Below are positions 3,563 through 64,000 of a stretch of DNA of 64,000 nt, in pieces; the stretch's first letter is position 1, and the number at the start of each line of letters is the position of its first letter. Position numbers and translations under genes: made by a program. The notes under the pieces are model-generated. The model did not search any database. It saw only the letters and a list, made by a program, of their open reading frames with translations, and was not told where the DNA came from. The DNA comes from Mobula hypostoma. Lineage: Eukaryota. The stretch lies in the NCBI RefSeq assembly GCF_963921235.1, contig NC_086108.1, positions 3,410,001 through 3,474,000 on the forward strand, written 5' to 3'.

Positions 3563-3636
3563 GATAGATAGATAGATAGATATACTTTATTGATCCCGAG
3601 GGAAATTGGGTTTCGTTACAGCCGCACCAACCAAGA
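3563..3636 (-). mobile_element. Extreme 3' tip of a Rex1/L2-type LINE with (TATC)n tail, inserted in L1
   Basis: (GATA)n followed by tactttattgatcccgagggaaattgg, also seen at ~21378. Interrupts the L1 ORF2 with an aatag duplication. Confidence 0.55.
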
Positions 3637-4902: not shown

Positions 4903-5023
4903 GTCGGGCAGCATCCGTGGAAACGATGAGTCGACGTTTCCACGGATGCTGCCCAACCTGCTGAGTTCCTCCAGCATGGTGTGAGTGTTGCTTTGACCTC
5001 AGCATCTGCAGATTATCTTGTGT
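4903..5023 (+). mobile_element. Penelope-like 3'-terminal mini-insertion with inverted 5' arm
   Basis: Flanked by 15-bp direct repeat tttgttgaatagtat (4888-4902, 5024-5038). Perfect 20-bp inverted repeat at 4906-4925/4935-4954. Confidence 0.75.
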
Positions 5024-37557: not shown

Positions 37558-39410
37558 TTGTCACAACCACGGATTCGGCAGCACAGCAGGTATGTCTTCT
37601 CACGCTCTTAAACTTTTCGATGATTTTAAGTTCCCTGGCCCCCACCGCTTTATTTTCACCATGGATGTCCAGTCCCTATATACTTCCATCCCCCATCAGG
37701 AAGGTCTCAAAGCTCTACACTTCTTTTTGGATTCCAGACCTAATCAGTTCCCCTCTACCACCACTCTGCTCCGTCTAGCGGAATTAGTCCTTACTCTTAA
37801 TAATTTCTCCTTTTGCTCCTCCCATTTCCTCCAAACTAAAGGTGTAGCTATGGGCACCCGTATGGGTCCTAGCTATGCCTGCCTTTTTGTTGGGTTTGTG
37901 GAATAATCTATGTTCCGTGCCTATTCTGGTATCTGTCCCCCACTTTTCCTTCGCTATATCGACGACTGCATTGGCGCTGCTTCCTGCACGCATGCAGAAC
38001 TCGTTGACTTTATTAACTTTGCCTCCAACTTTCACCCTGCCCTCAAGTTTACCTGGTTTATTTCCGACACCTCCCTCCCCTTTCTAGATCTTTCTGCCTC
38101 TGTCTCCGGAGACAGCTTATCCACTGATGTCTACTATAAGCCTACTGACTCTCACAGCTATCTGGACTATTCCTCTTCTCACCCTGTCTCTTGCAAAAAC
38201 GCCATCCCCTTCTCGCAATTCCTCCGTCTCCGCCACATCTGCTCTCAGGATGAGGCTTTTCATTCTAGGACGAGGGAGATGTCTTCATTTTTTAAAGAAA
38301 GGGGCTTCCCTTCCTCCACTATCAACTCTGCTCTTAAACGCATCTCCTCCATTTCACGTACATCTGCTCTCACTCCATCCTCCCACCACCCCACTAGGAA
38401 TAGGGTTCCCCTGGTCCTCACCTACCACCCCACCAGCCTCCGGGTCCAACATATTATTCTCCGTAACTTCCGCCACCTCCAACGGGATCCCACCACTAAG
38501 CACATCTTTCGCTCCCCCCTCTCTGCATTCCGCAGGGATCGCTCCCTACACAACTCCCTTGTCCATTCGTCCCCCCCATCCCACCCCACTTATAACCCTC
38601 CTGGCACTTATCCGTGTAAGCGGAACAAGTGCTACACATGCCCTTACACTTCCTCCCTTACCACCATTCAGGGCCCCAAACAGTCCTTCCAGGTGAGGCA
38701 TCACTTCACCTGTGAGTCGACTGGGGTGATATACTGCGTCCGGTGCTCCCGATGTGGCCTTTTATATATTGGTGAGACCCGACGCAGACTGGGAGATCGC
38801 TTTGCTGAACATCTACGCTCTGTCCGCCAGAGAAAGCAGGATCTCCCAGTGGCCACACATTTTAATTCCACATCCCATTCCCATTCTGACATGTCTATCC
38901 ACGGCCTCCTCGACTGTAAAGATGAAGCCACACTCAGGTTGGAGGAACAACACCTTATATTCCGTCTGGGTAGCCTCCAACCTGATGGCATGAACATTGA
39001 CTTCTCTAACTTCCGCTAGGCCCCACCTCCCCCTCATACCCCAGCTGTTACTCATTTTTATGCACACATTCTTTCTCTCACTCTCCTTTTTCTCCCTCTG
39101 TCCCTCTGAATATACCTCTTGCCCATCCTCTGGGTCACCCCCCCCCGTCTTTCTTCCTGGACCTCCTGTCCCATGATCCTCTCGTATCCCCTTTTGCCTA
39201 TCACCTGTCCAGCTCTCGGCTCTATCCCTCCCCCTCCTGTCTTCTCCTATCATTTTGCATCTCCCCCTCCCCCTCCAGCTTTCAAATCCCTTACTCACTC
39301 TTCCTTCAGTTAGTCCTGACGAAGGGTCTCGGCCTGAAACGTCGACTGCGCCTCTTCCTATAGATGCTGCTTGGCCTGCTGCGTTCACCAGCAACTTTGA
39401 TGTATGTTGT
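37558..39410 (+). mobile_element. Penelope-like element, 5'-truncated: RT + GIY-YIG endonuclease + 3' terminal repeat
   Basis: MDVQSLYTSIP, GVAMG, LRYIDD, LPFLD, then GVIYCVRCSRCGLLYIGET...RFAEH. One in-frame TAA at 37904-37906. Confidence 0.95.
39312..39347 (+). ncRNA. Minimal type I hammerhead ribozyme motif in Penelope 3' end
   Basis: AGTC-CTGACGA-AGGGTCTCGGCCT-GAAA-CGTC-GACT: core boxes, stem I AGTC/GACT, stem II, palindromic ACGT stem III. Confidence 0.7.
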
Positions 39411-40812
39411 TTCACAATACTCCAGGTGTGGTCTCACCAAGGCCTTGTACCACTACAGTAGTACCTCCCTGCTCCTGTACTCGAATCCTCTCGCTATAAA
39501 TGCCAGCATACCATTCGCCTTTTTCACCGCCTGCTGTACCTGCATGCCCACTTTCAATGACTGGTGTATAATGACACCCAGGTCTCATTGCACCTCCCCT
39601 TTCCTAATCGGCCACCATTCAGATAATAATCTGTTTTCCTATTTTTGCCACCAAAGTGGATAACTTCACATTTATCCACATTAAATTGCATCTGCCATGA
39701 ATTTGCCCACTCACACAACCTATCCAAGTCACCCTGATCCTCTTAGCATCCTCCTCACAGCTAACACTGCCACCCTGCTTCGTGTCATCTGCAAACTTGG
39801 AGATGCTGCATTTAATTCCCTCATCCAAGTCATTAATATATATTGTAAACAACTGGGGTCTCAGCACTGAGCCTTGCGGTACCCCAGCTAGTCACTGCCT
39901 GCCTTTCTGAAAAGGTCCCGTTTATTCCCACTCTTTGCTTCCTGTCTGCTAACCAATTCTCTATCCACATCAATACCTTACCCCCAATACCGTGTGCTTT
40001 AAGTTTGCACACTAATCTCCTGTGTGGGACCTTGTCAAAAGCCTTTTGAAAATCCAAATATACCACATCCACTGGTTCTCCCCTATCCACTCTACTCGTT
40101 ACATCCTCAAAAAATTCTATGAGATTCGTCAGACATGATTTTCCTTTCACAAATCCATGCTGACTTTGTCCGATGATTTCACCGCTTTCCAAATGTGCTG
40201 TTATCACATCTTTGATAACTGACTCCAGCAGTTTCCCCACCACCGACGTTAAGCTAACCGGTCTATAATTCCCCGGTTTCTCTCTCCCTCCTTTTTTAAA
40301 AAGCGGGGTTACATTAGCCACCCTCCAATCCTCAGGAACTAGTCCAGAATCTAACGAGTTTTGAAAAATTATCACTAATGCATCCACTATTTCTTGGGCT
40401 ACTTCCTTAAGCACTCTAGGATGCAGACCATCTGGCCCTGGAGATTTATCTGCCTTCAATCCCTTCAATTTACCTCACACCACTTCCCTACTAACATGTA
40501 TTTCTCTCAGTTCCTCCATCTCACAGGACCCTCTGTCCCCTACTATTTCTGGAAGATTATTTATGTCCTCCTTAGTGAAGACAGAACCAAAGTAATTATT
40601 CAATTGGTCTGCCATGTCTTTGCTCCCCATAATCAATTCACCTGTTTCTGTCTGCAGGGGACCTACATTTGTCTTTACCAGTCTTTTCCTTTTTACATAT
40701 CTATAAAAGCTTTTACAGTCAGTTTTTATGTTCCCTGCCAGTTTTCTCTCATAATCTTTTTTCCCCTTCCTAATTAAGCCCTTTGTCCTTCTCTGCTGGA
40801 CTCTGAATTTCA
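39411..40812 (-). mobile_element. CR1 RT fragment
   Basis: KSPGPDGLHPRVLKE, NYRPVSLTS, YLDFQKAFDKVPH, KFADD. Same subfamily as 47955-49347. Confidence 0.9.
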
Positions 40813-44719: not shown

Positions 44720-46320
44720 GAACTCTTCCACACAGGTTCCATTCTGCAACAAGCCCTCGCCAGCCAGGGCTCCCTCCTGGGTCAGCATGATCAACTTCTC
44801 TGAGATGTCATGGAGAACCTCCATTCCCTGTCTGCTAATGTAACGAAGATCGGTGACCAGGTGGACTGTGTATCCACTCATTTTACCCCATCCACTCCTG
44901 GAACTCTGCCTAATCAGCCCAGACAGCCTGCAGTGGCAACCTCCTACGTGTCAGCAACACCCCTGCCAAGAGAGCCACACGTACCTGAACCAGAACACTA
45001 CGCTGGGGTTTTGTGGAAGTGCCGGGCCTTCCTTCTGCAATGCTTCTTGGTGTTCGAACAGCAGTCATCCACATTCTCCATGGATATGTCGAAGGTAGCT
45101 TATATCATGGGGTTGTTGCGGGGAAGTGCCTTAGCGCGGGCTACAGCTGTTTGGGATAATGAACCGGATATCTGCTCTTCTTTCCCCACCTTTATTGTGG
45201 AAATGAGAAAGACCTTTGACCACCCCATCCGTGGTAAAGACGCCGCTAAGCATCTACTCGCTGTCTATCAGGGCTCGTGCAGTGTTGCCAAATATTCTGT
45301 GGAGTTCCAGACGTTAGCGGTCGACTCGGGGTGGAATGATGAGGCACTCCAAGAGGTATTTCGGAATGGTCTCAATGTCATGGTGAAAGACGAGTTGCAG
45401 CAAGGGATGACACCGACAGCCTGGATGCATTGATCTCCCTAGTCACCAGGTTGGACAATCATCTTCGAGAATGCCACAGGGAAAGAACTGGTTGTCCACC
45501 ACCTTTGGCCACTCCATGGCACTCATTACCATCTCCCACCAGCACAAGCCTCTCTTCTCTTCCTGCTCCTAGAATAGCTCCCAGCCCGGCCGTCTCCACC
45601 GCCCCGGGAGAGGAACCCATGCTGCTGGGACGGAACTGTCTTTCTCCCCCAGAGCGACTCCGGAGATTGAGAGCGGGGAGCGTCTCTATTGCGGCCAGTC
45701 CGGCCACTTTCGTGCTACCTGCCCCCTTCGGCCAAAAGGGAAGGCTCGCCAGTAGAAAGGGGGACCCTGGTGAGCCAGACAACATTCCCTTCCGTCGCCC
45801 GAACCTGGATGCAGATCCAAGCTACTTTACATTACAACCAACAGTCCCGGCTTCTGTCAGCTCTAGTGGACTCCAGCACTGACGGAAACCTTTTGGATGA
45901 AAACATAGCTTACCAGGCCGGAATTCCTCAGGATCGGTTGAGTACCCCTCTGGAATCCCGGACACTGGACGGTAGACTTCTGGCCCAAGTCACACTCTGC
46001 ACATTCATCCCACATTCCACGTCTCCCAATTGAAACCAGTATCTGTCAGCTCTTTGTGCCCTCCTGCCGAACCCCTCCACCCGCCCGGGTCATTGAGGAC
46101 CACCCAGAGTACACTGTCCGGCGAATACTGGATGTGCGCCGCTGAGGCAGGGGCCTCCAGTACCTGGTCGATTGGGAGGGATACGGCCCGGAGGAACGCT
46201 GCTGGATTCCCCGCTCCTTCATCCTGGACCCTTCCCTCATCCGTGATCTTCATCGTGACAATCCAGACAAGACTAGTGGTTGGCCTGGAGACTCTTGTTG
46301 AGGAGGGAGGGGTACTGCCA
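44720..46320 (+). mobile_element. Ty3/Gypsy chromovirus (sushi/Tf2-like) with internal deletion: gag, protease, chromodomain, PPT
   Basis: Gag CRAFLLQC...KVAYIMGLLRGSAL; knuckle LYCGQSGHFRATCP; protease [18 protein letters not shown]; chromodomain [19 protein letters not shown] 46300-46312 then TG. Confidence 0.9.
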
Positions 46321-46321
46321 C

Positions 46322-49300
46322 TGTCCCGATCAGCGGGAGAGTTTAAAAAGCGAGCAGATTGAGAAGAGGCGGTCATTTCTTCGGTAGTTTGAACGGGGCA
46401 TGACTGAGCAAGTGTGTGAAAGTCGGCCTGTGAGACAGCGGGAGAGTTTAAAAAGCGAGCAGATTAACGGAGCGGGCGACGGAGTAGTGGGAGACAGAGT
46501 AGAAAGGCTTTGGCTCCAGGGGCTTCGGCGAGCAGAGGCTGAGGACGAGCTTGTTCCCAGTGAGGTAAGGCCAGGTAAGTTCCTTTAATAACTCTAAATA
46601 ACTTAGGAGTAGGTAAGGAGGCAGCAGTGAGGGCAGCCGAGTGCTCCGTTTGCAGTATGTGGGAAGTCAGGGTGGGCACGATTGTCCCTGATGACTACAT
46701 CTGTAAAAGGTGCATCCAGCTGCAGCTCCTGACAAACCGAGTTAGGGAACTGGAGCTGGAGCTGGAGCTGGATGAACTTCAGATCATTTGGGAGGCAGAG
46801 GCAGAAATAGACAGGAGTTACAGGGAGACAGTCACCCCTAAGAGTCAGGAGACAGGTAGCTGGGTGACTGTCAGGAGAGGGAAGGAGAATAGACAGAATG
46901 AGCAGAGCACCCCTGTGGCCGTTCCCATCAATAATAAGTATACTGTTTTGGATACTGTTGGTGGGGACGATATACCACGGATAAGTTGCAGTGGTTGCGT
47001 CTCTGGCACTGAGGCTGGACCCTCAGCTCAGAAGGGAAGGAGGGAAAAGAGGAGAGCAGCAGTGATAGGGGATTCGATAGTTAGGGGGACAGATAAGAGG
47101 TTCTGTGGAAGAGATCGAGAATCCCAGATAGTCTGTTGCCTCCCTGGTGCCAGGGTCCGTGATATCTCGGATCGAGTTCTCGGTATTCTCAGGAAGGAGG
47201 GTGAGCAGCCAATGTAGTGATCCATGTAGGGACCAATGATATGGATAGGAAGAAGGAGGAGGTCCTGCAAAGAGAATTTAGGGAGTTAGGTGCAAAGTTG
47301 AAGGACAGGACATCCAGGGTTGCAATCTCAGGATTTCTACCCGTGCCACGTGCTAGTGAGGCTAGAAATAGAAACATAGAAGCATAGAAAATAGGTGCAG
47401 GGGTAGGCCATTCGGCCCTTCGAGCCTGCACTGCCATTCAGTATGATCATGGCTGATCATCCAACTCAGAACCCTGTACCTGCCTTCTCTCCGTACCCTC
47501 TGATCCCTTTAGCCACAAGGGCCATATCTAACTCCCTCTTAAATATAGCCAATGAACTGGCCTCAACTGTTTCCTGTGACAGAGAATTCCACAAATTCAC
47601 CACTCTCTGTGTGAAGAAGTTTTTCCTCATCTCAGTCCTAAAAGGCTTCCACTTTATCCTCAAACTGTGACCCCTCGTTCTGGACTTCCCCAACATCGGG
47701 AACAATTTTCCTGCATCTAACCTGTCCAATCCCTTTAGAATTTTATACGTTTCAATAAGATCCCCCCTCAATCTTCTAAATTCCAGATAATCTAATTTAA
47801 TCTAATCTAATCTAATTCCAGCGAGTATAAGCCTAGTCGATCCAATCTTTCTTCGTATGAAAGTCCTGCCATCCCAGGAATCAATCTGGTGAAACTTCTT
47901 TGTACTCCCTCTATGGCAAGAATGTCTTTCCTCAGATTAGGGGACCAAAACTGCACACAATACTCCTGGTGTGGTCTCACCAAGGCCTTGTACAACTGCA
48001 GTAGTACCTCCCTGCTCCTGTACTCGAATCCTCTTGCTATAAATGCCAGCATACCATTTGCCTTTTTCACCGCCTGCTGTACCTGCATGCCCACTTTCAA
48101 TGACTGGTGTATAATGACACCCAGGTCTCGTTGCACCTCCCCTTTTCCTAATCGGCCACCATTCAGATAATAATCTGTTCTCCTGTTTTTGCCACCAAAG
48201 TAGGTAACTTCACATTTATCCACATTAAATTGCATCTGCCATGAATTTGCCCACTCGCCTAACCTATCCAAGTCACCCTGCATCCTCTTAGCATCCTCCT
48301 CACAGCTAACACTGCCGCCCAGCTTTGTGTCATCCGCAAACTTGGAGATACTGCATTTAATTCCCTCGTCTAAATCATTAATATATATTGTAAACAACTG
48401 GGGTCCCAGCACTGGGCCTTGCATACCCCACTAGTCACTGCTTGCCATTCTGGAAAGGTCCCGTTTATTCCCACTCTTTGCTTCCTGTCTGCCAACCAAT
48501 TCTCTATCCATATCAATACCATACTCCCAATACCGTGTGCTTTAAGTTTGCACACTGATCTCCTGTGTGGGACCTTGTCAAAAGCCTTTTGAAAATCCAA
48601 ATATACCACATCCACTGTTTCTCCCCTATCCACTCTACTAGTTACATCCTCAAAAAATTCTATGAGATTCGTCAGACATGATTTTTCTTTCACAAATCCA
48701 TGCTGACTGTGCCCAATGATTTCACCGCTTTCCAAATGTGCTGTTATCACATCTTTGATAACTGACTCTAGCATTTTCCCCACCACCGATGTCAGGCTAA
48801 TCGATCTATAATTCCCCAGTTTCTCTCTCACTCCTTTTTTAAAAAGCGGGGTTACATTAGCCACCCTCCAATCCTCAGGAACTAATCCAGAATCTAAAGA
48901 GTTTTGAAAAATTATCACTAATGCATCCACTATTTCTTGGGCTACTTCCTTAAGCACTTTGGGATGCATCTGGCCCTGGGGATTTATCTGCCTTTAACCC
49001 CTTCAATTTACCTAACACCACTTCCCTACTAACATGTATTTCCCTCAGTTCGTCCATCTCACTGGACCCTCTGTCCCCTACTATTTCCGGAAGATTATTT
49101 ATGTCCTCCTTAGTGCAGACAGAACCAAAGTATTTATTCAATTGGTCTGCCATGTCCTTGTTCCCCATGATCAATTCATCTGTTTCTGACTGTAAGGGTC
49201 CGACATTTGTCTTAACCAATCTTTTTCTTTTTACATATCTATAAAAGCTTTTACAGTCAGTTTTTATGTTCCCTGCCAGCTTTCTCTCATAATCTTTTTT

Positions 49301-52300
49301 CCCTTTCCTAATTAAGCCCTTTGTCCTCCTCTGCTGGACTCTGAATTTCTCCCAGTCCTCAAGTGTGCCGCTTTTCCTGGCTAATTTGTATGTTTCCTCT
49401 TTGGAATTGATACTATCCCTAATTTCCCTTGTCAGCCACGGGTGCACTACCTTCCCTGGTTATTCTTTTGCCAAACTGGGATGAACAATTGTTGTAGTTC
49501 ATCCATGCGATCTTTAAATGCTTACCATTGCATATCCACCGTCAACCCTTTAAGTATCATTTGCCAGTCTATCTTAGCTAATTCACGTCTCATACCTTCA
49601 AAGTTACCCTTCTTTAAGTTCAGAACCTTTGTTTTGGAATTGACTATGTCACTCTCCATCTTAATGAAGAATTCCACCATATTATGGTCACTCTTACCCA
49701 AGGGGCCTCTCACGACAAGATTGCTAATTAACCCTTCCTCATTGCTCAATACCCTGTCTAGAATAGCCTGCTCTCTAGTTGGTTCCTCGACATGTTGGTT
49801 CAGAAAACTATCCCGCATACGTTCCAGGAAATCCTCTTCCTCAGCACCCTTACCAATTTGGTTCACCCAATCTATATGTAGATAGAAGTCACCCATTATA
49901 ACTGCCGTTCCTTTATTGCACGCATTTCTAATTTCCTGTTTAAAGCCATCCCCAACCTCACTACTAATGTTAGGTGGTCTGTACACAACTCCCACCAGCG
50001 TTTTCTGCCCCCTAGAGTTATGCAGCTCTATCCATATCGATTCCACATCCTCCCGGCTAACGTCCTTCCTTTCTATTGCATTAATCTCCTCTCTAACCAG
50101 CAATGCTACCCCATCTCCTTTTCTTTTATGTCTATCCCTCCTGAATATTGAATATTCGTGAATGTTGAGCTCCCATCCTTGGTCACCCTGGAGCCATGTC
50201 TCTGTGATCCCAACTATATCATAATCATTAATAACAATCTGCACTTTCAATTCATCCACCTTGTTATGAATGCTCCTTGCATTGGCACACAAAGCCTCAG
50301 GCTTGCTTTTACAACACTCATAGCCCTAATACAATTATGTTGAAAAGTGGCCCTTTTTGATTTTTGCCCTGGATTTGCCGGCCTGCCACTTTTACTTTTC
50401 ACCTTACTACTTTTTGCTTCTACCCTCACTTTACACCCCTCTGTCTCTCTGCACTTGTTCCCATCCCCCTGCCACATTAGTTTAAATCCTCCTGAACAAC
50501 AGTAGCAAACGCTCCCCCTAGGACATTGGTTCCAGTCCAGCCCAGGTGCAGACCGTCCTGTTTGTACCGGTCCCACCTCCTCCAGAACTGGTTCCAATGC
50601 CCCAGAAATTTGAATCCCTCCCCCTTGCACCATTTTTCAAGCCACTTATTCATCTGAAATATCCTCCTATTTCTACTCTGACTAGCATGAGGCACTGGTA
50701 GTAATCCAGAGATTATTACCTTTGTGGTCCTACTTTTTAGTTTATCTCCTAACTCCCTAAATTAACCTTGTAGGACCTCATCCCATTTTTCTCCTATATC
50801 GTTGGTACCTATGTGCACCACGACCACTGGCTGTTCACCCTCCCACTCCAGAATGTTCTGCAGCCGCTCAGAGACCTCCTTGACCCTTGCACCAGGGAGG
50901 CAACATACCCTCCTGGAGTCTCGTTTACGACCGCAGAACACCTATCTACTCCCCCTACAATCGAATCCCCTATCACTATAGCTCACCTACTCCTTTTCCT
51001 TCCCTCCTGTGCCGCAGAGCCACCCATGGTGCCATGAACTCGGCTGAAATAGGAAGATAATGCAGCTAAATACGTGGCTAAGGAGTTGGTGCAGGAGGGA
51101 GGGCTTCATGTTTCAGGACAATTGGGCCTTGTTCCAGGGAAGGTGGGACCTGTTCCAACGGGATGGGTTGCACCTGAACTGGAGGGGGACTAACGTCCTT
51201 GCGGGAAGGTTTGCTAGCGCTGCTCCCGGGCGTTTAAACTAGATTTGCAGGGGGAGGGGAAGCAGAGTGTTAGAGCAGATAGTGAGGTGGAGAAGGATAA
51301 AGGTCATGCGAGAACTGCAAGTATAGTGCATGGAGTAAAGCCACGTACAACATATAAAGAGGCTTTGAGAAAAGAGAAGCAGAATAAAGGGTGTAAAGGT
51401 AGTAAGGTAGAAGGGCTAAAGTGCGTGTACTTCAATGTAAGAAGCATGGGGAACAAAGGTGATGAACTGAGAGCTTGGATACATACAGGGAATTATGATG
51501 TAGTGGCCATTACAGAGACTTGGCTGGCACCAGGGCAGGAATGGATTCTCAATATTCCTGGATTTCAGTGCTTTAAAAGGGATGGGGGCGGGAGGGGAGG
51601 AGGGGTGGCATTACTGGTCAGGAATACTATTATAGCTACAGAAAGGGTGGGTAATATAGCAGGATCCTCTTTTGAGCCAGTATGGGTGGAAGTCAGGAAC
51701 AGGAACGGAGCAGTTACTCTACTGGGAGTATTCTATAGGCGATCTGGTAGCAGCAGAGATACAGAGGAGCAGATTGGGAGGCAGATTTTGGAAAGGTGCA
51801 AAAATAACAGGGTTGTTATTCATGGGTGACTTTAACTTCCCTGATATTGATTGGCACCTGATAGGTTCCAATGGTTTAGACGGGGCAGAGTTTGTTCAGT
51901 GCGTCCAGGACTTTTTCCTGTCACAGCATGTTGACAGGCCGACAGGGGGAATGCCATACTAGATCTAGTACTAGGTAATGAACCGGGTCAGGTCACAGAT
52001 GTCTCAGTGGGTGAGCATCTGGGGGACAGTGACCACCGCTCCCTGGCCTTTAACATTATCATGGAAAAGGATAGAATCAGAGAGGACAGGAAAATTTTTA
52101 ATTGGGGAAGGGAAAATTATGAGACTACAAGGCTAGAACTTGTGGGTGTGAATTGGGATGATGTTTTTGCAGGGAAATGTACTATGGACATGTAGTTGAT
52201 GTTTAGGGATCTCTTGCAGGATGTTAGGGATAAATTTGTCCTGGTGAGGAAGATAAAGAATGGTAGGGTGCAGGAACCATGGGTGACAAGTGAAGTGGAG

Positions 52301-54266
52301 AATCTAGTCAGGTGGAAGAAGGCAGCATACATGAGGTTTAGGAAGCAAGGATCAAATGGGTCTATTAAGGAATATAGGGAAGCAAGAAAGGAGCTTAAGA
52401 AGGGGCTGAGGAGAGCAAGAAGGGGGCATGAGAAGGCCTTGGCGAGTAGGGTAACGGAAAACCCTAAGGCATTCTTCAATTATGTGAAGAACAAAAGGAT
52501 GACAGGAGTGAAGATAGGACCGATTAGGGATAAAGGTGGAAAGATGTGCCTGGAGGCAGTTGAAGTGAACGAGGTCCTCAATGAATACTTCTCTTCAGTA
52601 TTCACCAATAAGAGGGAACTTGATGACAGTGAGGACAATATGAGTGAGGTTGATGTTCTGGAGCATGTTGATATTAAGGGAGAGGAGGTGTTGGAGTTGT
52701 TAAAATGCATTAGGACGGTTAAGTCCCCGGGATCTGACGGAATATTCCCCAGGCTGCTCCACGAGGCAAGGGAAGAGATTGCTGAGCCTCTGGCTGGGAT
52801 CTTTATGTCCTCGTTGTCCATGGGAATGGTACCGGAAGACTGGAGGGAGGCGAATGTTGTCCCCTTATTCAAAAAAAGGTAGTAGGAATAGTCCGGGTAA
52901 TTATAGACCAGTGAGCCTTACGTCTGTGCTGGGAAAGCTGTTGGAAAAGATTCTTAGAGATAGGATCTATGAGCAATTAGAGAATCATGGTCTGATCAGA
53001 GACAGTCAGCATGGCTTTGTGAAGGGCAGATCATGTCTAACAAGCCTGATAAAGTTCTTTGAGGAGGTGACCAGACATATAGATGAGGGTAGTGCAGTGG
53101 ATGTGATCCACATGAATTTTAGTAAGGCATTTGACAAGGTTCCACATGGTAGGCTTATTCAGAAAGTCAGAAGGCATGGGATCCAGGGATGTTTGGCCAG
53201 ATGGATTCAGAATTGGCTTGCCTGCAGAAGGCAGAGGGTCATGGTGGAGGGAGTACATTTGGATTGGAGGGTTGTGACTAGTGGTGTCCCACAAGGATTG
53301 GTTCTAGGACCTCTACTTTTTGTGATTTTTATTAACGACCTGGATGTGGGGGTGGAAGGGCGGGTTGGCAAGTTTGCAGACGACACAAAAGTTGGTGGTG
53401 TTGTGGATAGTGTGGAGGATTGTCGCAGATTGCAGAGAGACATTGATAAGATGCAGAAGTGGGCTGAGAAGTGGCGGATGGAGTTCAACCCGGAGTAGTG
53501 TGAGGTGGTACGCTTTGGAAGGACAAACTCTAAGGCAGAGTACAAAGTAAATGACAGGGTACTTGGAAGTGTGGAGGAGCAGAGGGATCTGGGGGTACAT
53601 GTCCACAGATCCCTGAAAGTTGACTCACAGGTAGATGGGGTAGTTAAGAAAGCTTATGGAGTGTTAACTTTCATAAGTCGAGGGATAGAGTTTAAGAGTC
53701 ATGGGGTACTGATGCAGCTCTATAAAACTCTGGTTATGCCACAATTGGAGTACTGTGTCCAGTTCTGGTTGCCTCACTATAGGAAGGATGTGGAAGCATT
53801 GGAAAGGGTACAGAGGAGATTTACCAGGATGCTGCCTGGTTTAGAGAGTATGTTTTATGATCAGAGATTAAGGGAGCTAGGGCTTTACTCTCTGGAGAGA
53901 TGGAGGATGAGAGGAGACATGATAGAGGTGTACAAGATAATAAGAGGAATAGATAGAGTGGACAGCCAGTGCCTCTTTCCCAGGGCGCCACTGCTCAATA
54001 CAAGAGGACATGGGTTTAAGGTAAGGAGTGGAAAGTTCAAGGGGGATATTAGAGGAAGGTTTTTCACTCAGAGAGTGGTTCGTGCGTGGAATGCACTGCC
54101 TGAGTCAGTGGTGGAGGCAGATACACTAGTGAAATTTAAGAGACTACTAGACAGGTATATGGAGGAATTTAAGGTGGGGGGTTATATGGGAGGCAGGGTT
54201 TAAGGGTCAGCACAACATTGTGGGCCAAAGGGCCTGTATTGTGCTGTACTGTTTTATGTTCTATGT
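46322..54266 (+). mobile_element. Near full-length CR1 LINE (5'UTR, ORF1 zinc finger/esterase, ORF2 APE-RT), decayed and split by a nested CR1
   Basis: ORF1 CSVC...CKRC + leucine zipper + VIGDSIVRG, resuming at 51053 (DGLHLN). ORF2 VAITETW, GDFN, NYRPVSLTS, KFADD; (TTCTATG)-like tail. Confidence 0.92.
47372..51045 (-). mobile_element. Nested CR1 LINE (ORF1 C-terminus + complete but frameshifted ORF2)
   Basis: NARSI...ITETWL, SDHN, KAFDKVPH, KFADD. Flanked by GAAATAG direct repeat (47365-47371, 51046-51052). Confidence 0.92.
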
Positions 54267-59019: not shown

Positions 59020-59830
59020 GCTTGATAGCACCCCAGCGAACGACACCAGATCCTGTCATATCTGAAGTCCGCGGTTGCAATTCTTAACTAGGACTGTACC
59101 AGTCACGAATGGAGGGGTGAACAGATGCAATAACATACGCTATAAAAATCAGTCTGATAATTAAAAAACAATTAACTGCGTTCGATTGTACTTAAAAGCA
59201 TTCAAGTTAATTTCGGGAGATTGTATTGTCTGGAGGTAGAAATATGGTTTTCAGGGAGATGGGAACGCCCAACTGCGCCTTTTTCTTTCTCTCCCTCCCC
59301 CTTCCCATCGGGCCGCTCGCCGTTATTTATGATGTTGAAACGTTCAGTTTCTAGGTTAGTTTGGTGCTGGTTGCAGAGTTACCCAGAACAGCCCGCAATT
59401 CGCAGAGGGCGGTCGCAGCGCTACTCTGCCGCAAACATGGTTCTCCAGATTGAAGTATCGTACTGGTAAGATCTTAATGGCGCAGTGTAATACTCTTCCC
59501 CCACTCCTCAACTCATCACTAAGTCCAGGAGTTCTTCATCCCAGCACCGCAGACCCCCAAATCCCAATTCTATCCGCTTTTTTTCCTGCGTTTCTTACGC
59601 TTTATAGATTTAGAACGCCTCTTTTTATTTCTTGTAAACTCCTGGTCAGTTTGCTGCCGAGTTCCTTCGGCTGGACGCATTCTATTTTAGTGGGGGTGTA
59701 GTTCACTGGTTGTGGTTGAGTGAACCTTGGAAAGCTTTGGATAGCTCGGAATCCAATGAACTGCGTTGTTTACGCGAAGAGTGCGTTTGTATTTGAGTTA
59801 ACATTTGTGATACAGTGCTGTTACACAACG
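59020..59830 (+). promoter_or_regulatory. CpG-enriched unique region: probable promoter/5' end of the SELENOW-like gene
   Basis: Visibly more CG dinucleotides than neighbouring unique sequence, surrounding the ATG exon. TATAAAA at 59141-59147 (function unproven). Confidence 0.5.
59437..59465 (+). CDS. SELENOW: Selenoprotein W-family (Rdx) gene, first coding exon (MVLQIEVSY + TG of Cys codon)
   Basis: ATG in good Kozak context (gcaaacATGG), 29 coding nt, then GTAAG donor at 59466. Lies in unique CpG-rich sequence. The peptide resembles the SelW N-terminal strand (human MALAVRVVYC). Confidence 0.8.
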
Positions 59831-60460
59831 CGCAACACACACAAAATGCTGGAGGAATTCAGTATCTATGGACAAGAGTACAGTCGACGTTTCGGGCCGA
59901 GATCCTTCATCAGGACTAGAGGGGGAAAAAAAAAGATGTGTGTTAGAAGGTGGGGGGAGGAAGGAAGAAACACAAGGCGATAGATGGAACCGGGGGGGGG
60001 GGTGAAGTCAAGAGCCGGGAAGTTGGTGAAAGAGATACAGGGCTGAAGAACGGGAATCTGATAGGAGAGGGTAGAAGACTATGGAAAAAGAGAAGGGGAG
60101 GTGTACCAGAGGGAGGTGAGAAGATACGGTGAGAGAGGGAAAAGAGGAATGGTGAAGGTGTGGGGGGGGGCATACCGGAAGTTCGAGAAATCGATGTTCA
60201 TGCCGTCAGGTTGGAGGCTACCCAGACGGAAAGTAGGTTGGGAGACCGCTTCGCTGAACATCTACACTCCGTCCAGTGGCCACCCATTTTAATTCCACTT
60301 CCTATTCCCATTCTGACATGCCTGTCCATGGCCACCTTTACTGTCACAATGAGGCCACACCTTGGAGGAGCAACACGTTTTCCTTCTGGTTGGGTTGCTT
60401 CCGACCTGATGGCACGATCATCGATTTCTGGACCTTCCGGTGATGCCCCTCCCCCTTAGT
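59830..60460 (-). mobile_element. Penelope-like 3' fragment with internal inversion, in SELENOW intron
   Basis: Minus-strand terminal repeat to ~60230, then plus-strand GDRFAEHL... piece. Confidence 0.75.
59882..59917 (-). ncRNA. Minimal hammerhead ribozyme motif
   Basis: Minus strand reads AGTC-CTGATGA-AGGATCTCGGCCC-GAAA-CGTC-GACT. Confidence 0.62.
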
Positions 60461-60505
60461 TAAATTACTGTTGCTGGAGTTCGTCAGAAGTCAACATAAA
60501 ATGCA

Positions 60506-60681
60506 AAGCAACACACACACAGAAGGCTGGAGGAACTCAGCAGCTCAAAGCGGTCTCAGCCCGAAACGTCAACTGTTTATTCTCCTTCATAGATGCTGCC
60601 TGACCGGCTGAGTTCCTCTAGCATTGTGTGTGTGTTGCTCAGGATTTCCAGCACCTGCAGAATCTCTTGTGTTTGTTGTAC
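60506..60681 (+). mobile_element. Penelope-like terminal mini-insertion with inverted arm
   Basis: 12-bp TSD acataaaatgca (60494-60505, 60682-60693). Confidence 0.75.
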
Positions 60682-61149
60682 ACATAAAATGCAGCCAGGC
60701 TGGATACTTTGTGACAACGCCATATTTCAATTGACGCGGGTCCTTTCTCCCCCCGTTACTACCTTTCTCAAGCAAAGGCAGTGACTTCAGAATTGATTTA
60801 AGGAGGACAATCTTTCAATAGTTCAAGGCGTTTCTTTGGGAACTGTCTTCTCTTTCTCGGGGAGGTCAATTCTGTTTTGTTGTGTTGAGAGAAGGTTTAA
60901 GTAATTATGAACTAATTCGAGTTTCCCAGTGCGGCAGTACAGTATGCCATCAACAAGCGTTACCGAGTTGATCGTAACCTTCACAGCACAACAACAATAA
61001 CGAAAATAAAGACTCTACATATACAGTAGTTTTAGAGAACTATATTGAATCGGAACGTATTCTGTGGCCTTCAGTTTCTGCATCATTGCTTGCACGTTTA
61101 TATTGGGATTTGAAACTTTAAAGAGTTTGCTCATAATATGGGGGCACCA

Positions 61150-61375
61150 TGGGCGTGTAGCGGTTAAAGCGACGCTATTACAGCTCGGGGGGGCGTCGGA
61201 GTTCAATTCCTTCCTGTACGTCCTTCCTGAATCCGCTGGTTTCCTCCCACATTCTAAAGGTAGGTTAATTGGTCACTGTAAATTGTCCAGTGATTAGACT
61301 AGGGTTAAATGGATGAGTTGCTGGGCGGCGCTGCCCATTGATCTGGAAAAATCTGTTCCCAGCTGTATTTCTAAA
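61150..61375 (+). mobile_element. tRNA-derived SINE (V-SINE/HE1-like)
   Basis: A/B-box-like gtagcggtta...gagttcaattcc; ggtttcctcccacatt; ggttaattggtcactgtaaattg. Confidence 0.6.
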
Positions 61376-61464
61376 AATAAACTTTGCTTTCACTTTGATG
61401 CGTTTATTTCTAACATGGCATGACCGAGTGAAGTGTTGAATGATCAGTCTCCTATCTATAGCGA

Positions 61465-61695
61465 TACAGTTTGGAATAGGCTCCTCCAGCCCTTTGAGCA
61501 ATCCCTCGATTTAATCCTAGCCTAATCACGGGACAATTTACAGTGACCAATTAACCTACTGACCGGTACATCTTGGACTGTGGGAGCAGACCCACAGGGT
61601 CACCAGGAGAACGTACAAACTCCCTGCAGACAGCTGCAGGAATTGAACTCGGGTAGCCTTTACTATAAAGCGCTGTGCTAACCACTACGTTGCCA
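61465..61695 (-). mobile_element. tRNA-derived SINE of the same family, opposite orientation
   Basis: 61509-61560 is the reverse complement of 61259-61310. Other fragments at ~30545-30690 and ~55640-55770. Confidence 0.6.
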
Positions 61696-61815
61696 TCCTG
61701 CCCTCTGAAGCAACAGTGCTAGGGAACAGAAGATAATTTGGTGGTGTGATTCTGTAGTGAAGTATCAAGTACTAATTTATTAAATGTACTAATCCCCTTT
61801 TTCTTTTACCTTTAG

Positions 61816-61840
61816 TTCTTCCTGAGGTTACCGGAGCCGG
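61816..61840 (+). CDS. SELENOW: Selenoprotein W-family gene, 25-nt second coding exon with in-frame TGA (Sec): C-S-S-U-G-Y-R-S-R
   Basis: Branch-point-like TACTAAT (61787-61793), polypyrimidine tract, TTTAG acceptor, exon T TCT TCC TGA GGT TAC CGG AGC CGG, GTAAGC donor. Phase is compatible with the previous exon and gives CxxU-GY (human CGAUGYKSK). Confidence 0.82.
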
Positions 61841-61924
61841 GTAAGCAAAAATGGTTGCATTAATATTGTTCTTTTCACTCCAGAGTCTAAACCAGGCAGA
61901 TATTTAGACGTATATACTATCTGG

Positions 61925-62320
61925 AGAGGCTAGATAAACTGGGGTTGTTTTCTCTGGAGCGTCAAAGGCTGAGGAAAGATCTGATGGGGGTTTATAAGAG
62001 GTGTAGGTAGACTAGACAAAGTATCCGTTTCCCAGGGTTGAACTGACAAATACCAGAGGGCATGCATTGAAGGTGAGAGGGTACAGTTTTTTACTCAGAG
62101 AATGGTGGATGCCTGGAATGTGCTGCCCGGTATGGTGGTAGAGGCAAATACATTAGCGGTTTTTAAGAGACGGGCACATGGATGTGAGGAAGGTGGAGGG
62201 ATATGGACATGGTGTAGGGAGGAGGGAATAGTATTTAGGTATTTTTGATCTGCTTTTTAGCTGGTTCAGCACAATATTGTGGGCCAAATGGCCTGTTCCT
62301 CTACTGTACTCTTCTATGTT
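61925..62320 (+). mobile_element. Degenerate CR1 3' fragment
   Basis: tttttactcagagaatggtggatgcctggaatg and CR1-type 3'UTR. Confidence 0.7.
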
Positions 62321-63094
62321 ATATTTGTTATAGGTCCTTTGGAAGTCAAAGAATGAGGCAATACAACTTACTGCTTACAGCCATTTCATTAAATATTACA
62401 AGAGCGGAAAGCAAATGGGAGGAGCTCAGAGAACAAAGAAAAAGGAAAAAGCAGTCTTGTACCAGACCAATGATAACAAAATTCCAGTGATAAGAATTAA
62501 CCAATAAAATGGCCAGGTCGAAGCAGTGCAACACCTGCTACTAGAATTTAAGAAGTTTCTAGAAGTAACTGTACTGTAATTGCTGGAAAATTCACTGAGC
62601 AATTGCATATAGGTGACTGTCAGAATTGGGTTTAATACCACCAGCATATGTCGTGAAATTTGTTGTAATTGTGGCAGCAGTGCAATGCAATACATAATAG
62701 CAGTGAGGAGAAAAACTGAATGAAAGTAAGTTTATTAAATAGTTAAATAAGTAGTGTAAAAAAAAGAAATCAAATAGTGAGGTAGTGCTTATAAAATATA
62801 TGCATAGCAAAGTTAAATTACAAGAAAAATAATAATTTTAAACCCCAGTCCGACAATGAAATGTTTTGCTAGTGTTCATCATTGTGGTACATTTAGAAAT
62901 GTGACAATCAATTTGTAGCGTGCTTCTACAGAAGCTATGGCCCAAAGATACCAGCAAGAGCTCTTTGCTGTTATTGCTACAGGGACTTGGCCTAGGGTCC
63001 CTTGAGAAGAAGCAGCAGAGAGTCTCATCCAAAGGACAGCATCTCTGAGCAAACAATACTGGCATGCTGGCCTGGATTTTTGTCATTTAATAAC

Positions 63095-64000
63095 CATATA
63101 ACAATTACAGCACGGAAACAGGCCATCTCAGCCCTTCTAGTCCGTGCCGAACTCTTACTCTCACCTAGTACCACCGATCTGCACTCAGCCCATAACCCTC
63201 CATTCCTTTCCTGTCCATAGAGCTATCCAATTTAACTTTAAATGACAACATCGAACCTGCCTCAACCACTTCTGCTGGAAGCTCATTTCACACAGCTACC
63301 ACACTCTGAGTAAAGTTCCCCCTCATGTTACCCCTAAACTTTTGCCCTTTAACTCTCAACTCATGTCCTCTTGTTTGAATCTCCCCAACTCTCAATAGAA
63401 AAATCCTATCCACGTCAACTCTATCTATCCCCTTCATAATTTTAAATACCTCTATCAAGTCCCCCCTCAATTTTATCCCTCACTATCCTTTTGCTATTAA
63501 TATAATTGTAGAAACCCTTTGGATTTATTTTCACCTTACTTGCCAAAGCAACCTCATATCTTCTTTTAGCTTTTCTAATTTCTTTCTTAAGATTCTTTTT
63601 ACATTCTTAATATTCCTCGAACACCTCATTTACTCCAAGCTGCCTATATTTATTGTAGGTCTCTCTCTTTTTCCAAACCAAGTTTCCAATATCACTTGAA
63701 AACCATGGCTCTCTCAAACTTTTAACCTTTCCTTTCAACCTAACAGGAACATAAAGGTTCTGTACCCTCAAAATTTCACCTTTAAATTACCTCCATTTCT
63801 CTATTACATCCTTCCCATAAAACAAATTGTCCCAATCCACTCCTTCTAAATCCTTTCGCGTCTCCTTAAAGTTAGCCTTTCTCCAATCAAAAATCTCAAC
63901 CCTGGGTCCAGTCCTATCCTTCTCCATAATTATATTGAATCTAACGGTATTGTGATCACTGGACCCGAAATGCTCCCCAACACATACCTCTGTCACCTGC
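63095..64000 (-). mobile_element. CR1 fragments (3' end joined to an upstream ORF2 segment, internal deletion at ~63472)
   Basis: MRGDLIEVFKIMKG and GSSDHNTVRF motifs; runs off the window. Confidence 0.8.

What the first reader, a model, noticed from the sequence alone, without database searches (positions are those of the whole stretch)
59437..61840. Hidden selenoprotein W-family gene with UGA-encoded selenocysteine on a 25-nt microexon
Seen: a 29-nt ATG exon ending TAC TG|GTAAG and a 25-nt exon AG|T TCT TCC TGA GGT TAC CGG AGC CGG|GTAAG splice to MVLQIEVSYCSS*GYRSR. Established: SelW/Rdx-family selenoproteins begin with a beta strand followed by CxxU-GY (human MALAVRVVYCGAUGYKSK). From memory, human SELENOW has the same 29-nt/25-nt split. 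Inference: the TGA at 61823-61825 is recoded as Sec. The ORF track misses the gene entirely, and automated annotation may truncate it or call it non-coding.
Basis: partly seen in the sequence, partly recalled or inferred. Interest (0 to 1): 0.9.

Follow-up and report, generated by a model that had tools for sequence, protein, structure and literature searches.

The report
Expressed selenoprotein W gene in ray
This is a real, spliced and highly expressed selenoprotein W gene whose UGA codon sits on a 25-base exon; it is an ordinary kind of gene, but it lies in a cartilaginous-fish-type genome, a group for which a recent survey reported this gene as lost.

Summary
Transcriptome-sized contigs from 3 of 4 runs carry the 59465^61816 GT..AG junction, and all 4 run from exon 3 into exon 4. 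I found the rest of the gene beyond the window: exons 3-5 complete an 87-codon frame with one UGA (codon 13). A sixth, 3'UTR-only exon holds a type-2 SECIS candidate 41 nt from its start, below Rfam's threshold. This matches the published mammalian SelW architecture (PMC3316567). Sequence, intron pattern and linkage to OTX/CRX, NOP53, EHD and BICRA homologues point to SELENOW1. Two paralogues elsewhere carry CTSU (next to a TRPM6/7-type gene) and CGAU (annotated 'MIEN1-like' with the Sec codon skipped). The kind is well known. The new point is that the nearest named proteins are from rays, and a 2026 survey (PMC13134290) infers SELENOW1 loss in Chondrichthyes. No database protein contains exon 4. 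Sec insertion itself is inferred, not shown.

The parts
59368..59436 (+). 5'UTR of exon 1, as far as the longest RNA contig reaches
   Evidence: X2 record 9 (1316 nt) lies on L018:368-464 and then continues into a 26-nt sequencing adapter, so the contig's 5' end is at window 59368. There is no upstream ATG.
59437..59465 (+). Exon 1 coding part, 29 nt: MVLQIEVSY plus the first two bases (TG) of the Cys codon; donor GTAAGA
   Evidence: The junction is confirmed by contigs in X2, X3 and X4. [quoted passage not shown]
59466..61815 (+). Intron 1, 2350 nt, GT..AG, full of repeats
   Evidence: One search reports 'skips 2350, GT..AG (cut +1)'. Many repeat-derived contigs lie on it at high depth (table 2).
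61816..61840 (+). Exon 2, a 25-nt microexon: T TCT TCC TGA GGT TAC CGG AGC CGG, giving (C)SSUGYRSR; acceptor ttttacctttAG, donor GTAAGC
   Evidence: The shorter side of the junction in the contigs is 26 nt.
61823..61825 (+). In-frame TGA, codon 13, the inferred selenocysteine codon of the CSSU motif
   Evidence: It is the only TGA in the 87-codon spliced frame, which ends in TAA. It aligns with the Sec-to-Cys position of mouse SelW chain 2npb_A (read by eye).
61841..64000 (+). First 2160 nt of intron 2 (6572 nt in all). The rest of the gene lies beyond the window, given here in window coordinates continued past 64000 (C50 coordinate minus 3,410,000). Exon 3 is 68413-68466. Exon 4 is 72885-72965 (L002:8885-8965). 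Exon 5 is 74289-74390 (L003:289-390, stop TAA at 74361-74363). Exon 6 is 78469 to about 79397 (L003:4469 to about 5397, AATAAA at L003:5380-5385). The SECIS candidate is 78502-78568 (L003:4502-4568).
   Evidence: No SelW-like frame occurs in 61841-64000. The exons were found. The exon 3 end joined to the exon 4 start in 4 of 4 runs. The poly(A) signal is.

Best explanation
The window holds the first two exons of a functional six-exon selenoprotein W gene of the SELENOW1 type. It spans about 20 kb (C50:3,469,368 to about 3,489,397, + strand). The roughly 1.29-kb mRNA encodes an 87-residue thioredoxin-like (Rdx-family) protein. The redox motif Cys10-Ser-Ser-Sec13 straddles the exon 1/2 junction. 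The UGA on the 25-nt microexon is read as selenocysteine because a type-2 SECIS stem-loop in the 3'UTR recruits the Sec-insertion machinery (SBP2, eEFSec, tRNA-Sec). That stem-loop lies in a separate sixth exon, 41 nt from the exon start and 68 nt after the TAA stop. Shown here: the sequence, the splice sites, the exon 1-2 and exon 3-4 junctions in abundant RNA-type contigs, the single open 87-codon frame, and the linkage to homologues of the human SELENOW neighbours. Inferred: Sec insertion, SECIS function, and the biochemical role. That role would be a glutathione-dependent oxidoreductase and 14-3-3 partner, by homology to mammalian SELENOW as described in PMC13134290 and in the abstract of PMC8508763. 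A further inference from the architecture is that the UGA lies upstream of four exon junctions, so termination at it (for example under selenium shortage) should expose the mRNA to nonsense-mediated decay. This is reported for mammalian SelW, but that is recalled and not checked here.
For: All five introns are GT..AG with polypyrimidine acceptors, and the exon phases are compatible. The coding exons are 29+25+54+81+75 = 264 nt, which is 87 codons plus TAA.

Runs X1-X4 hold 0.95-1.00 of the 60 sampled words of exon 6. The exon 1-2 joint appears in 3 of 4 runs at depths of 828-3862. X1 shows the exon 1 tail as a loose end. The loose end behind exon 3 equals the first 30 nt of exon 4 in 4 of 4 runs. 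The X2 contig is 1316 nt: a 26-nt adapter plus 1290 nt, against 1289-1290 nt for my exon model. The implied 3' end falls 12-13 nt after AATAAA.

The only SECIS_1 match in 7.75 kb downstream is on the + strand inside exon 6, with AUGA, a 12-nt helix side, AAA, a 5-bp mini-stem and AGAU. The MFE fold reproduces this shape (-30.2 kcal/mol, z -2.15, 6 of 200 shuffles as stable). There are 0 SECIS_1 matches at E<=10 in the 64-kb window and 0 in 23 kb of other loci.

The architecture equals that of published mammalian SelW: 6 exons, CDS in exons 1-5, 9 residues from exon 1, and exon 6 consisting of 3'UTR with the SECIS core on average 38 nt from its start (PMC3316567 section read).

Exon 4 alone hits only Pfam Rdx (12.5 bits). 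The spliced model aligns with Rdx-bearing ray MIEN1-like proteins at 32-34% identity over 70-75 residues. By eye it matches about 28 of 57 displayed residues of mouse SelW 2npb_A and is collinear through residues 11-38.

One of 3 TF_Otx loci lies 265 kb downstream. The only NOP53 hits, one of 5 EHD_N loci and one of 2 GLTSCR1/BICRA loci sit together at C50:8.90-9.04 Mb. PMC8872157 lists the human genes as BICRA, EHD2, NOP53, SELENOW, TPRX1, CRX.
Against: The SECIS match is below Rfam's gathering score (22.3 against 35 bits, E 1.1 over all families), and nothing reached gathering in 60 kb downstream. I had no orthologous SECIS to test for covariation.

The exon 2-3, 4-5 and 5-6 junctions were not displayed by any tool. 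Only 15 of 44 joints were listed. These junctions rest on splice signals, depth arithmetic and the contig length.

The runs are labelled 'RNA?' (a guess) and are contigs, not raw reads.

The full spliced protein could not be given to Pfam, to structure prediction or to a database search. Exon-wise PDB searches found no SelW, and the atlas gave no usable hit (best score 0.81).

The identity to mouse SelW was counted by eye. EHD lies 5.5 Mb away, not within the 300 kb used as the criterion in PMC13134290. No Radial_spoke (RSPH) hit is on C50. No tree was built. Sec insertion has not been demonstrated.
Confidence: 0.88

Rival explanations
1. The gene is a real Sec-encoding SelW-family gene but is not the SELENOW1 orthologue. 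It would be a SELENOW2-type gene or a lineage-specific paralogue, so the published loss of SELENOW1 in Chondrichthyes would stand.
For: No phylogeny was made. EHD2-type synteny within 300 kb is not met (5.5 Mb). The xx of the CxxU motif is SS rather than the GA shown for mouse SelW. PMC13134290 analysed several batoids and reports loss.
Against: The genome already has a SELENOW2-type gene beside a TRPM6/7-type gene (C52). It also has a MIEN1-type gene with a CAAX-like tail (C91). Both of these have a single long Sec exon and the LVFSKL..FPY core, unlike the C50 gene. The C50 gene has the mammalian SelW exon plan, including the 3'UTR intron and the SECIS position. It is closer to mouse SelW (about 49% by eye) than to ray MIEN1-like proteins (32-34%). 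It is linked to OTX/CRX, NOP53, EHD and BICRA homologues.
Confidence: 0.08
2. The UGA is a true stop. The transcript would then be a non-coding or decaying remnant (a unitary pseudogene) that yields at most a 12-residue peptide.
For: The SECIS candidate is sub-threshold. No protein evidence exists. No database protein contains exon 4.
Against: After the UGA, 74 further codons spread over four exons stay open and in phase, and they read as a SelW-like sequence to the end. The contigs have depths of 828-3862. All splice sites are intact. A SECIS-shaped element sits at the position expected for SelW. Words from the 3'UTR exon are shared at 0.25-0.45 with runs labelled organisms B, C, D and G.
Confidence: 0.03
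3. The match is a chance resemblance: two short open segments with splice-like edges inside repeat-rich DNA.
For: The exons are only 29 and 25 nt long, and the surrounding window is mostly retroelement debris.
Against: The exact junction is present in independent contig sets. Three further exons and a poly(A) signal fit a single 1290-nt transcript.
Confidence: 0.01

Closest known systems
Mammalian selenoprotein W (SELENOW / SelW1; solved mouse structure 2npb)
   Same: An N-terminal beta-strand is followed by CxxU-GY. Sec is at codon 13. The protein is a small single Rdx domain (87 codons here). The gene has six exons with the CDS in exons 1-5, 9 residues from exon 1, and a 3'UTR-only exon 6 carrying the SECIS about 40 nt from its start (41 nt here, average 38 nt in PMC3316567). 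Shared motifs seen are LK.KLE..FP..LDI, TG.FEV and GKL.HSK. Homologues of the human neighbours CRX, NOP53, EHD2 and BICRA lie on the same contig.
   Different: The motif is CSSU, whereas the mouse chain displays GA at the xx positions. There is a two-residue shift in the loop before TG.FEV and a two-residue insertion (KKSG) before GKLLHSK, both by eye. The introns are much longer (1.3-6.6 kb). The EHD-NOP53-BICRA block is 5.4-5.6 Mb away rather than adjacent. The 3'UTR is about 957 nt against an average of 358 nt in mammals (PMC3316567).
SELENOW2 (TRPM7-linked clade; candidate in this genome at C52:97190196-97191440)
   Same: It belongs to the same Rdx family, has a CxxU motif, and has the Cys codon split by an intron at the same phase.
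   Different: The C52 gene has CTSU, one long Sec exon with no 25-nt microexon, and the core GSFEVTVNNKLVFSKLQSNAFPY. It lies 15 kb behind the alpha-kinase exon of a TRPM6/7-type gene. No such domains occur on C50.
MIEN1 / Rdx12 (human structure 2ljk; candidate in this genome on C91)
   Same: It has the Rdx fold and a CxxU/CxxC motif. The C50 model is 32-34% identical to the ray MIEN1-like proteins over 70-75 residues.
   Different: MIEN1-type proteins end in a CAAX-like PPC(I/V)IL and have the LVFSKLE..GFPYE core. The C50 protein ends in AALGK and has no such tail. Ray MIEN1-like P0001 scores 89.5 bits against human MIEN1 but only 14.5 bits against mouse SelW.
SELENOV
   Same: It has the same six-exon plan and similar exons 2-5 (PMC3316567).
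   Different: SELENOV is specific to placental mammals and has an exon 1 of about 261 residues. The gene here has 9 residues from exon 1.

Membership tests
SelW/Rdx family (Pfam PF10262) | CxxU (or CxxC) redox motif directly after an N-terminal hydrophobic strand | tested here: met
   The sequence VLQIEVSY-C-S-S-TGA-G-Y is read from the DNA and the confirmed exon 1-2 junction.
SelW/Rdx family (Pfam PF10262) | Match to the Rdx profile above its gathering score | tested here: inconclusive
   Only single exons could be submitted. Exon 4 scored 12.5 bits (cut-off 22.6, E 0.18), with Rdx as the only family hit at profile positions 39-57. Exon 5 had no hit. The genome-wide profile search did not list this locus. 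Indirect support: the spliced model aligns with three PF10262-bearing proteins at 30-31.6 bits and 32-34% identity over 70-75 aa.
Eukaryotic selenoprotein gene | In-frame UGA with a continuing conserved reading frame | tested here: met
   There is one TGA at codon 13, and 74 further open codons across exons 2-5 end in TAA. The exons resemble mouse SelW.
Eukaryotic selenoprotein gene | SECIS element in the 3'UTR: core motifs and shape | tested here: met
   AUGA, a 12-nt helix side, AAA, a 5-bp mini-stem and AGAU are present on the + strand at L003:4502-4568. The MFE fold gives the type-2 shape.
Eukaryotic selenoprotein gene | SECIS element reaching the curated Rfam SECIS_1 score | tested here: not met
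   The match scores 22.3 bits against the gathering score of 35. There were 0 matches at gathering in 60 kb. SECISearch3 was not available.
Eukaryotic selenoprotein gene | Selenocysteine actually incorporated | not testable with these tools
   This needs 75Se labelling, mass spectrometry or ribosome profiling.
SELENOW1 clade | Six exons, CDS in exons 1-5, 9 residues from exon 1, and exon 6 consisting of the 3'UTR tail with the SECIS core about 38 nt from its start (PMC3316567) | tested here: met
   Exon 1 gives 9 codons plus 2 nt. The SECIS core lies 41 nt into exon 6. The exon 1-2 and exon 3-4 junctions are in RNA contigs. The other junctions rest on splice signals and contig-length arithmetic.
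SELENOW1 clade | EHD2 in the near neighbourhood (within about 300 kb, the criterion of PMC13134290) | tested here: not met
   The nearest EHD_N exon is at C50:9,015,606, 5.5 Mb away.
SELENOW1 clade | Linkage to homologues of the human 19q13.33 neighbours (BICRA, EHD2, NOP53, SELENOW, TPRX1, CRX; list in PMC8872157) | tested here: met
   A TF_Otx locus (1 of 3) lies 265 kb downstream. NOP53 (both hits), EHD_N (1 of 5 loci) and GLTSCR1/BICRA (2 of 3 hits) lie at C50:8.90-9.04 Mb. Whether the C50 OTX-type gene is the CRX/OTX5 orthologue was not tested.
SELENOW1 clade | Groups with SELENOW1 rather than SELENOW2 or MIEN1 in a gene tree | not tested
   No SELENOW1 sequences could be obtained as tool objects. 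The only evidence is a by-eye count of about 28 of 57 identities to mouse SelW, against 32-34% identity to ray MIEN1-like proteins.
SELENOW2 clade | Lies beside TRPM7 (PMC13134290) | tested here: not met
   No Alpha_kinase or LSDAT_euk hit is on C50. That neighbourhood belongs to the C52 paralogue.
MIEN1 / Rdx12 | C-terminal CAAX-type tail and the LVFSKLE..GFPYE core, as in 2ljk and P0001-P0003 | tested here: not met
   The C50 exon 5 ends in ...IEAALGK-stop. The core reads GKLLHSKLGGEGHV.

The most novel reading that the evidence does not exclude
SELENOW1 was not lost in Chondrichthyes. At least this ray-type genome keeps all three SelW-family clades as Sec-encoding genes: SELENOW1 with CSSU on C50, SELENOW2 with CTSU beside a TRPM6/7-type gene on C52, and MIEN1 with CGAU on C91. 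On this reading the reported absences are detection artefacts. The likely causes are 25-29-nt exons, kilobase-long repeat-filled introns, a Cys codon split by an intron, and a rearranged neighbourhood that no longer places the gene next to EHD2.
Probability: 0.72. Interest if true: 0.5.

Novelty: new member of a known kind. Interest (0 to 1): 0.4.

Why it matters
Selenoprotein W is a textbook selenoprotein, so the mechanism is not new. The value lies in three corrections.

First, a 2026 reconstruction of vertebrate selenoproteomes (PMC13134290) maps an independent loss of SELENOW1 to Chondrichthyes. It also does not list chondrichthyans among SELENOW2 holders. An intact, highly expressed SELENOW1-type gene, plus a SELENOW2-type gene, in a ray-type genome would remove at least one inferred loss. 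It would agree instead with the older statement that SelW1 occurs in all vertebrates (PMC3316567).

Second, it is a concrete case of why selenoprotein genes escape annotation (the theme of PMC12822975). The Sec codon sits on a 25-nt exon, the Cys codon is split, and no exon exceeds 27 codons.

Third, the paralogue's database proteins ('MIEN1-like', three ray species) appear to skip their Sec codon. This shows the same problem in public annotation.

Tried and rejected
- **Protein database with exon 4:** The contiguous open frame around exon 4 found no candidate among proteins of 33-105 aa. Among proteins of 106-2000 aa, 2 candidates shared words and none scored.
- **PDB with single exons:** exon 4 gave only chance beta-trefoil hits. 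Exon 3 (23 aa including intron codons) and exon 5 gave nothing at E<=10.
- **Protein atlas** on the exon 4 part: the best score was 0.81, below the usable range. One row at 0.78 had 15% Rdx members and is a lead only.
- **Genome-wide Pfam Rdx search** did not list the C50 exons. A search of the own genome with exon 4 found only exon 4 itself, so no retrocopy or close paralogue is detectable this way.
- **Earlier scan notes:** none exist for this genome.
- **Pfam scan of the window:** I scanned 51 of the 94 window open frames of >=110 aa (those of about 140 aa or more). Only retroelement domains turned up (11 frames with hits), and no host gene usable for synteny.
- **N-terminal exons of the C91 and C52 genes:** they were not found within 10 kb by the first two motif scans. 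The first exon of the C91 gene is still unresolved.
- **SECIS for the C52 and C91 genes:** no SECIS_1 match at E<=10 in L020, L022 or L027.
- **Radial_spoke (RSPH):** hits are on C40 and C2, not on C50, so that anchor gives no support.
- **Structure prediction and complex prediction** were not attempted, because the spliced protein is not a contiguous translation of held DNA.
- **Parts of L018 without contig cover** are not used as evidence.
Full report
**Observation.** The coordinates are exact.
- ATG is at 59437. Exon 1 CDS 59437-59465 is 29 nt, ends TAC TG, and has the donor GTAAGA.
- After a 2350-nt intron comes a 25-nt exon, 61816-61840. It is preceded by a polypyrimidine tract and AG and followed by GTAAGC.
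- The join reads MVLQIEVSY-C-S-S-TGA-G-Y-R-S-R, with the Cys codon split TG|T and the TGA at 61823-61825.
- The start context is GCAAACATGG, and the 69-nt 5'UTR has no upstream ATG.

**Where the window lies.** The window is G000:C50:3410001-3474000 in a 3.48-Gb genome of 200 contigs. The gene runs off the window end, so I fetched 60 kb downstream. Below, 'extended' coordinates continue the window numbering past 64000, so they equal the C50 coordinate minus 3,410,000.

**The rest of the gene.** Motif and splice-aware scans found three more coding exons, all in phase 0 with AG/GT boundaries.

| Exon | Extended coordinates | Locus coordinates | Peptide | Boundaries |
|---|---|---|---|---|
| 3 | 68413-68466 | L002:4413-4466 | FNSLKQKLEDVFPNELDI | ...ttttctAG / GTAAGT |
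| 4 | 72885-72965 | L002:8885-8965 | FGTPVSGNTGCFEVKIKKSGKLLHSKL | ...cttcAG / GTTAGT |
| 5 | 74289-74390 | L003:289-390 | GGEGHVEEIHLKKIIKGIEAALGK, then TAA | donor AAG\|GTGAGA, 27 nt after the stop |

- The coding exons sum to 29+25+54+81+75 = 264 nt. That is 87 codons plus the stop, with a single TGA at codon 13.
- One search used an exon 5 that was one base too long. The donor seen puts the exon end at L003:390.
- A sixth exon begins at L003:4469, behind tttttttttgtccgttccAG.
- An AATAAA lies at L003:5380-5385.

**SECIS.**
- At Rfam's gathering thresholds nothing was found in the 60 kb downstream.
- With the permissive threshold on L003:250-8000, the only SECIS_1 match is at L003:4502-4568 on the + strand. 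It scores 22.3 bits against a gathering score of 35, with E 1.1 counted over all 4227 families and both strands.
- It has the hallmarks of a type-2 SECIS: AUGA (4510-4513), a 12-nt helix side, unpaired AAA, a 5-bp mini-stem, and AGAU on the 3' side.
- The unconstrained MFE fold reproduces this shape: -30.2 kcal/mol, z -2.15, and 6 of 200 shuffles fold as well.
- As controls, the same permissive search gave 0 SECIS_1 matches in the 64-kb window and 0 in 23 kb around the paralogues.
- The core lies 41 nt from the start of exon 6 and 68 nt after the stop.
- The score is below the curated threshold, and I had no orthologues to test for covariation. The SECIS is therefore a well-placed candidate, not a demonstrated element.

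**Transcript evidence.** Four runs of one organism (X1-X4) hold 0.95-1.00 of the sampled words of exon 6. They are labelled 'RNA?', and their contig sets are 89-170 Mb for a 3.5-Gb genome. Runs labelled as other organisms hold 0.25-0.45. Laid on L018, which is window 59001-69000:
- The joint 464>2815 'GT..AG (cut +1)' is exactly 59465^61816. It appears in X2, X3 and X4, one contig each, at depths of 828, 1104 and 3862.
- X1 has a 14-nt loose end before 2815 that is the tail of exon 1.
- In 4 of 4 runs the loose end behind L018:9466 (the end of exon 3) is the first 30 nt of my exon 4.
- The exon 2-3 joint is not among the 15 of 44 joints listed. However, the bin depths over exon 3 fit the same contigs.
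- The X2 contig of 1316 nt consists of a 26-nt adapter plus 1290 nt. My six-exon model gives 1289-1290 nt, and the implied 3' end falls 12-13 nt after AATAAA.
- One search lists no base differences at exons 1-3.
- These are contigs, not raw reads, so they say nothing about strand or expression level.

**Family.** The spliced protein could not be handed to Pfam, fold prediction or database tools, so the tests are partial.
- Exon 4 alone hits only Pfam Rdx (12.5 bits, below the cut-off).
- Inside a script, the 87-residue model aligns to three Rdx-bearing ray proteins (P0001-P0003) at 32-34% identity over 70-75 residues, covering exons 2-5.
- A PDB search with P0001 printed residues 10-67 of mouse SelW (2npb_A). 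By eye the model is collinear with it through residues 11-38, and the exon 2/3 and 3/4 boundaries fall at residues 18/19 and 36/37. About 28 of 57 positions match.
- P0001 itself scores 89.5 bits against human MIEN1 (2ljk) and only 14.5 bits against mouse SelW.

**Architecture.** PMC3316567 (section 'SelV and SelW', read whole) describes mammalian SelW as follows:
- It has six exons.
- The coding region lies in exons 1-5.
- Nine residues derive from exon 1.
- Exon 6 holds only the 3'UTR tail with the SECIS, whose core is on average 38 nt from the exon start.

The gene here matches every item, with the SECIS core at 41 nt.

**Paralogues and orthology.** The genome-wide Rdx search found two other strong loci.
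- **C91 (minus strand).** It matches database proteins named 'migration and invasion enhancer 1-like' from three ray species. Those proteins have three unrelated N-termini, have no CxxC or CxxU, and converge only from YE.RYQ. The genome shows an exon ...caccgcAG|T GGC GCC TGA GGG TAC..., giving (C)GAUGYEVRYQELANN.... The annotations therefore seem to skip a Sec codon.
- **C52.** It has ...ccccAG|T ACC TCC TGA GGA TTC..., giving (C)TSUGFLARFLFLATEIKEQ.... This exon is 1.1 kb before its Rdx core exon. It also lies 15 kb behind an alpha-kinase exon and 80-90 kb behind LSDAT exons of a TRPM6/7-type gene.

PMC13134290 (section read whole) gives TRPM7 as the synteny mark of SELENOW2 and EHD2 as that of SELENOW1. 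For the C50 gene:
- One of three TF_Otx loci lies 265 kb downstream.
- The only NOP53 hits (8.898-8.921 Mb), one of five EHD_N loci (9.016 Mb) and a GLTSCR1/BICRA locus (9.034-9.044 Mb) form a block 5.4-5.6 Mb away on the same contig.
- A passage of PMC8872157 lists the human genes as BICRA, EHD2, NOP53, SELENOW, TPRX1, CRX.
- The strict criterion of EHD2 within 300 kb is not met, and no Radial_spoke hit is on C50.

Taking exon plan, sequence and linkage together, I read C50 as SELENOW1, C52 as SELENOW2 and C91 as MIEN1. All three have a UGA and the same split Cys codon. Only C50 has the extra intron that makes the 25-nt microexon. No tree was built.

**Comparison with the literature.**
- PMC3316567 states that SelW1 was found in all vertebrates and that SelW2 was found in elephant shark (passages).
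- The part of its supplement that is held shows that its chondrichthyan set includes four batoids.
- The SELENOW tree, the presence map and the loss-validation table are not held. I therefore cannot tell whether this gene was missed, filtered out or placed elsewhere.
- The nearest named proteins of this genome's paralogue are from rays. The present gene therefore conflicts with the inferred loss, at least for this lineage.
- PMC12822975 (listing and passages) documents widespread flaws in selenoprotein annotation. This fits the absence of any database protein containing exon 4. It is weak evidence, because I could not see the genome's own annotation.

**Mechanism.**
- Shown: a spliced, abundant transcript; an 87-codon frame with one UGA; and a SECIS-shaped element at the family-typical place.
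- Inferred: SBP2/eEFSec/tRNA-Sec-mediated insertion of Sec at codon 13. The product would be a thioredoxin-like protein with a Cys10-x-x-Sec13 redox centre that acts like mammalian SELENOW. That protein is described as a glutathione-dependent oxidoreductase in PMC13134290 and as binding 14-3-3 through the U of CXXU in the abstract of PMC8508763 (search listing only).
- The UGA precedes four exon junctions, so failure to decode it should trigger nonsense-mediated decay. This rests on recalled mammalian data.

**Verdict.** The gene is an ordinary member of a well-known family. It is notable mainly because it contradicts a recently inferred lineage loss and because it illustrates, together with its two paralogues, how microexons and UGA defeat annotation.

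Noticed in passing
G000:C91:68819050-68819157 (minus strand; L024), TGA at C91:68819145-68819143: A second SelW-family gene has an exon reading (C)GAUGYEVRYQELANNILKSFPDADVSGDVGRN, with the Cys codon split as in the window's gene. Its database products from three ray species ('MIEN1-like', P0001-P0003) have unrelated N-termini, lack CxxC/CxxU, and start to agree right after the UGA-G. The annotation therefore appears to skip the Sec codon. The tail PPCIIL resembles the CAAX end of human MIEN1 (2ljk).
   Followed up: partly
G000:C52:97190196-97191440 (+ strand; L021, L009): A third family member has a Sec exon reading (C)TSUGFLARFLFLATEIKEQVPEARITG, followed 1.1 kb later by GSFEVTVNNKLVFSKLQSNAFPYHEDV (Pfam Rdx 28.5 bits). 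It lies directly behind a TRPM6/7-type gene (LSDAT exons at 97.10-97.11 Mb, alpha-kinase exon at 97.176 Mb). It fits SELENOW2, which PMC13134290 does not list for Chondrichthyes. I have no RNA evidence for it and found no SECIS.
   Followed up: partly
G000:C91:68832418 downward (minus strand; L026): The annotated first exon of P0001 reads ...NGLYCGALESEG. Its DNA (TAC TGT GGC GCC TTG GAG) shares a run of about 9 nt (TGGCGCCT) with the true Sec exon 13 kb downstream (T GGC GCC TGA GGG). This could be chance, an old duplication or an alternative first exon. The real first exon of this gene was not identified.
   Followed up: partly
window 559-2961, 37907-39016, 39836-40474, 44804-45430, 47810-54200: The 59 kb upstream of the gene consists mostly of retroelement remains. 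These include reverse transcriptase and endonuclease frames (LINE-like) on both strands, a GIY-YIG frame (Penelope-like), a retrotransposon gag frame and zf-RVT frames. No host gene was recognised among the 51 frames scanned.
   Followed up: partly
window 59669-60670, 63009-63676 and 66015-66348 (L018:669-1670, 4009-4676, 7015-7348): Repeat segments inside introns 1 and 2 attract very many RNA-type contigs (summed depths in the thousands, 95-99% identity) and many spurious 'joints'. They look like members of abundant transcribed repeat families rather than part of this gene.
   Followed up: no
window 1228-1290 and 3040-3102 (+); window 4896-4962 (-): Two stretches 1.8 kb apart give identical sub-threshold Rfam scores (rdlD, 24.2 bits), so they are copies of one repeat. 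There is also a weak mir-1791-like hairpin (30.6 bits, gathering score 75). Both are probably repeat-derived.
   Followed up: no
L003:4469-5100 (exon 6 / 3'UTR): Runs labelled as four other organisms (B, C, D, G) hold 0.25-0.45 of the sampled 31-mers of this 3'UTR exon. This suggests that near-identical orthologous transcripts exist in related species.
   Followed up: no
G000:C2:125920666-126352629 and C36:147.88-149.08 Mb: Other EHD loci pair with a weak Radial_spoke exon (C2) and with an alpha-kinase gene (C36). These may be paralogous blocks of the SELENOW neighbourhood left by ancient genome duplications.
   Followed up: no
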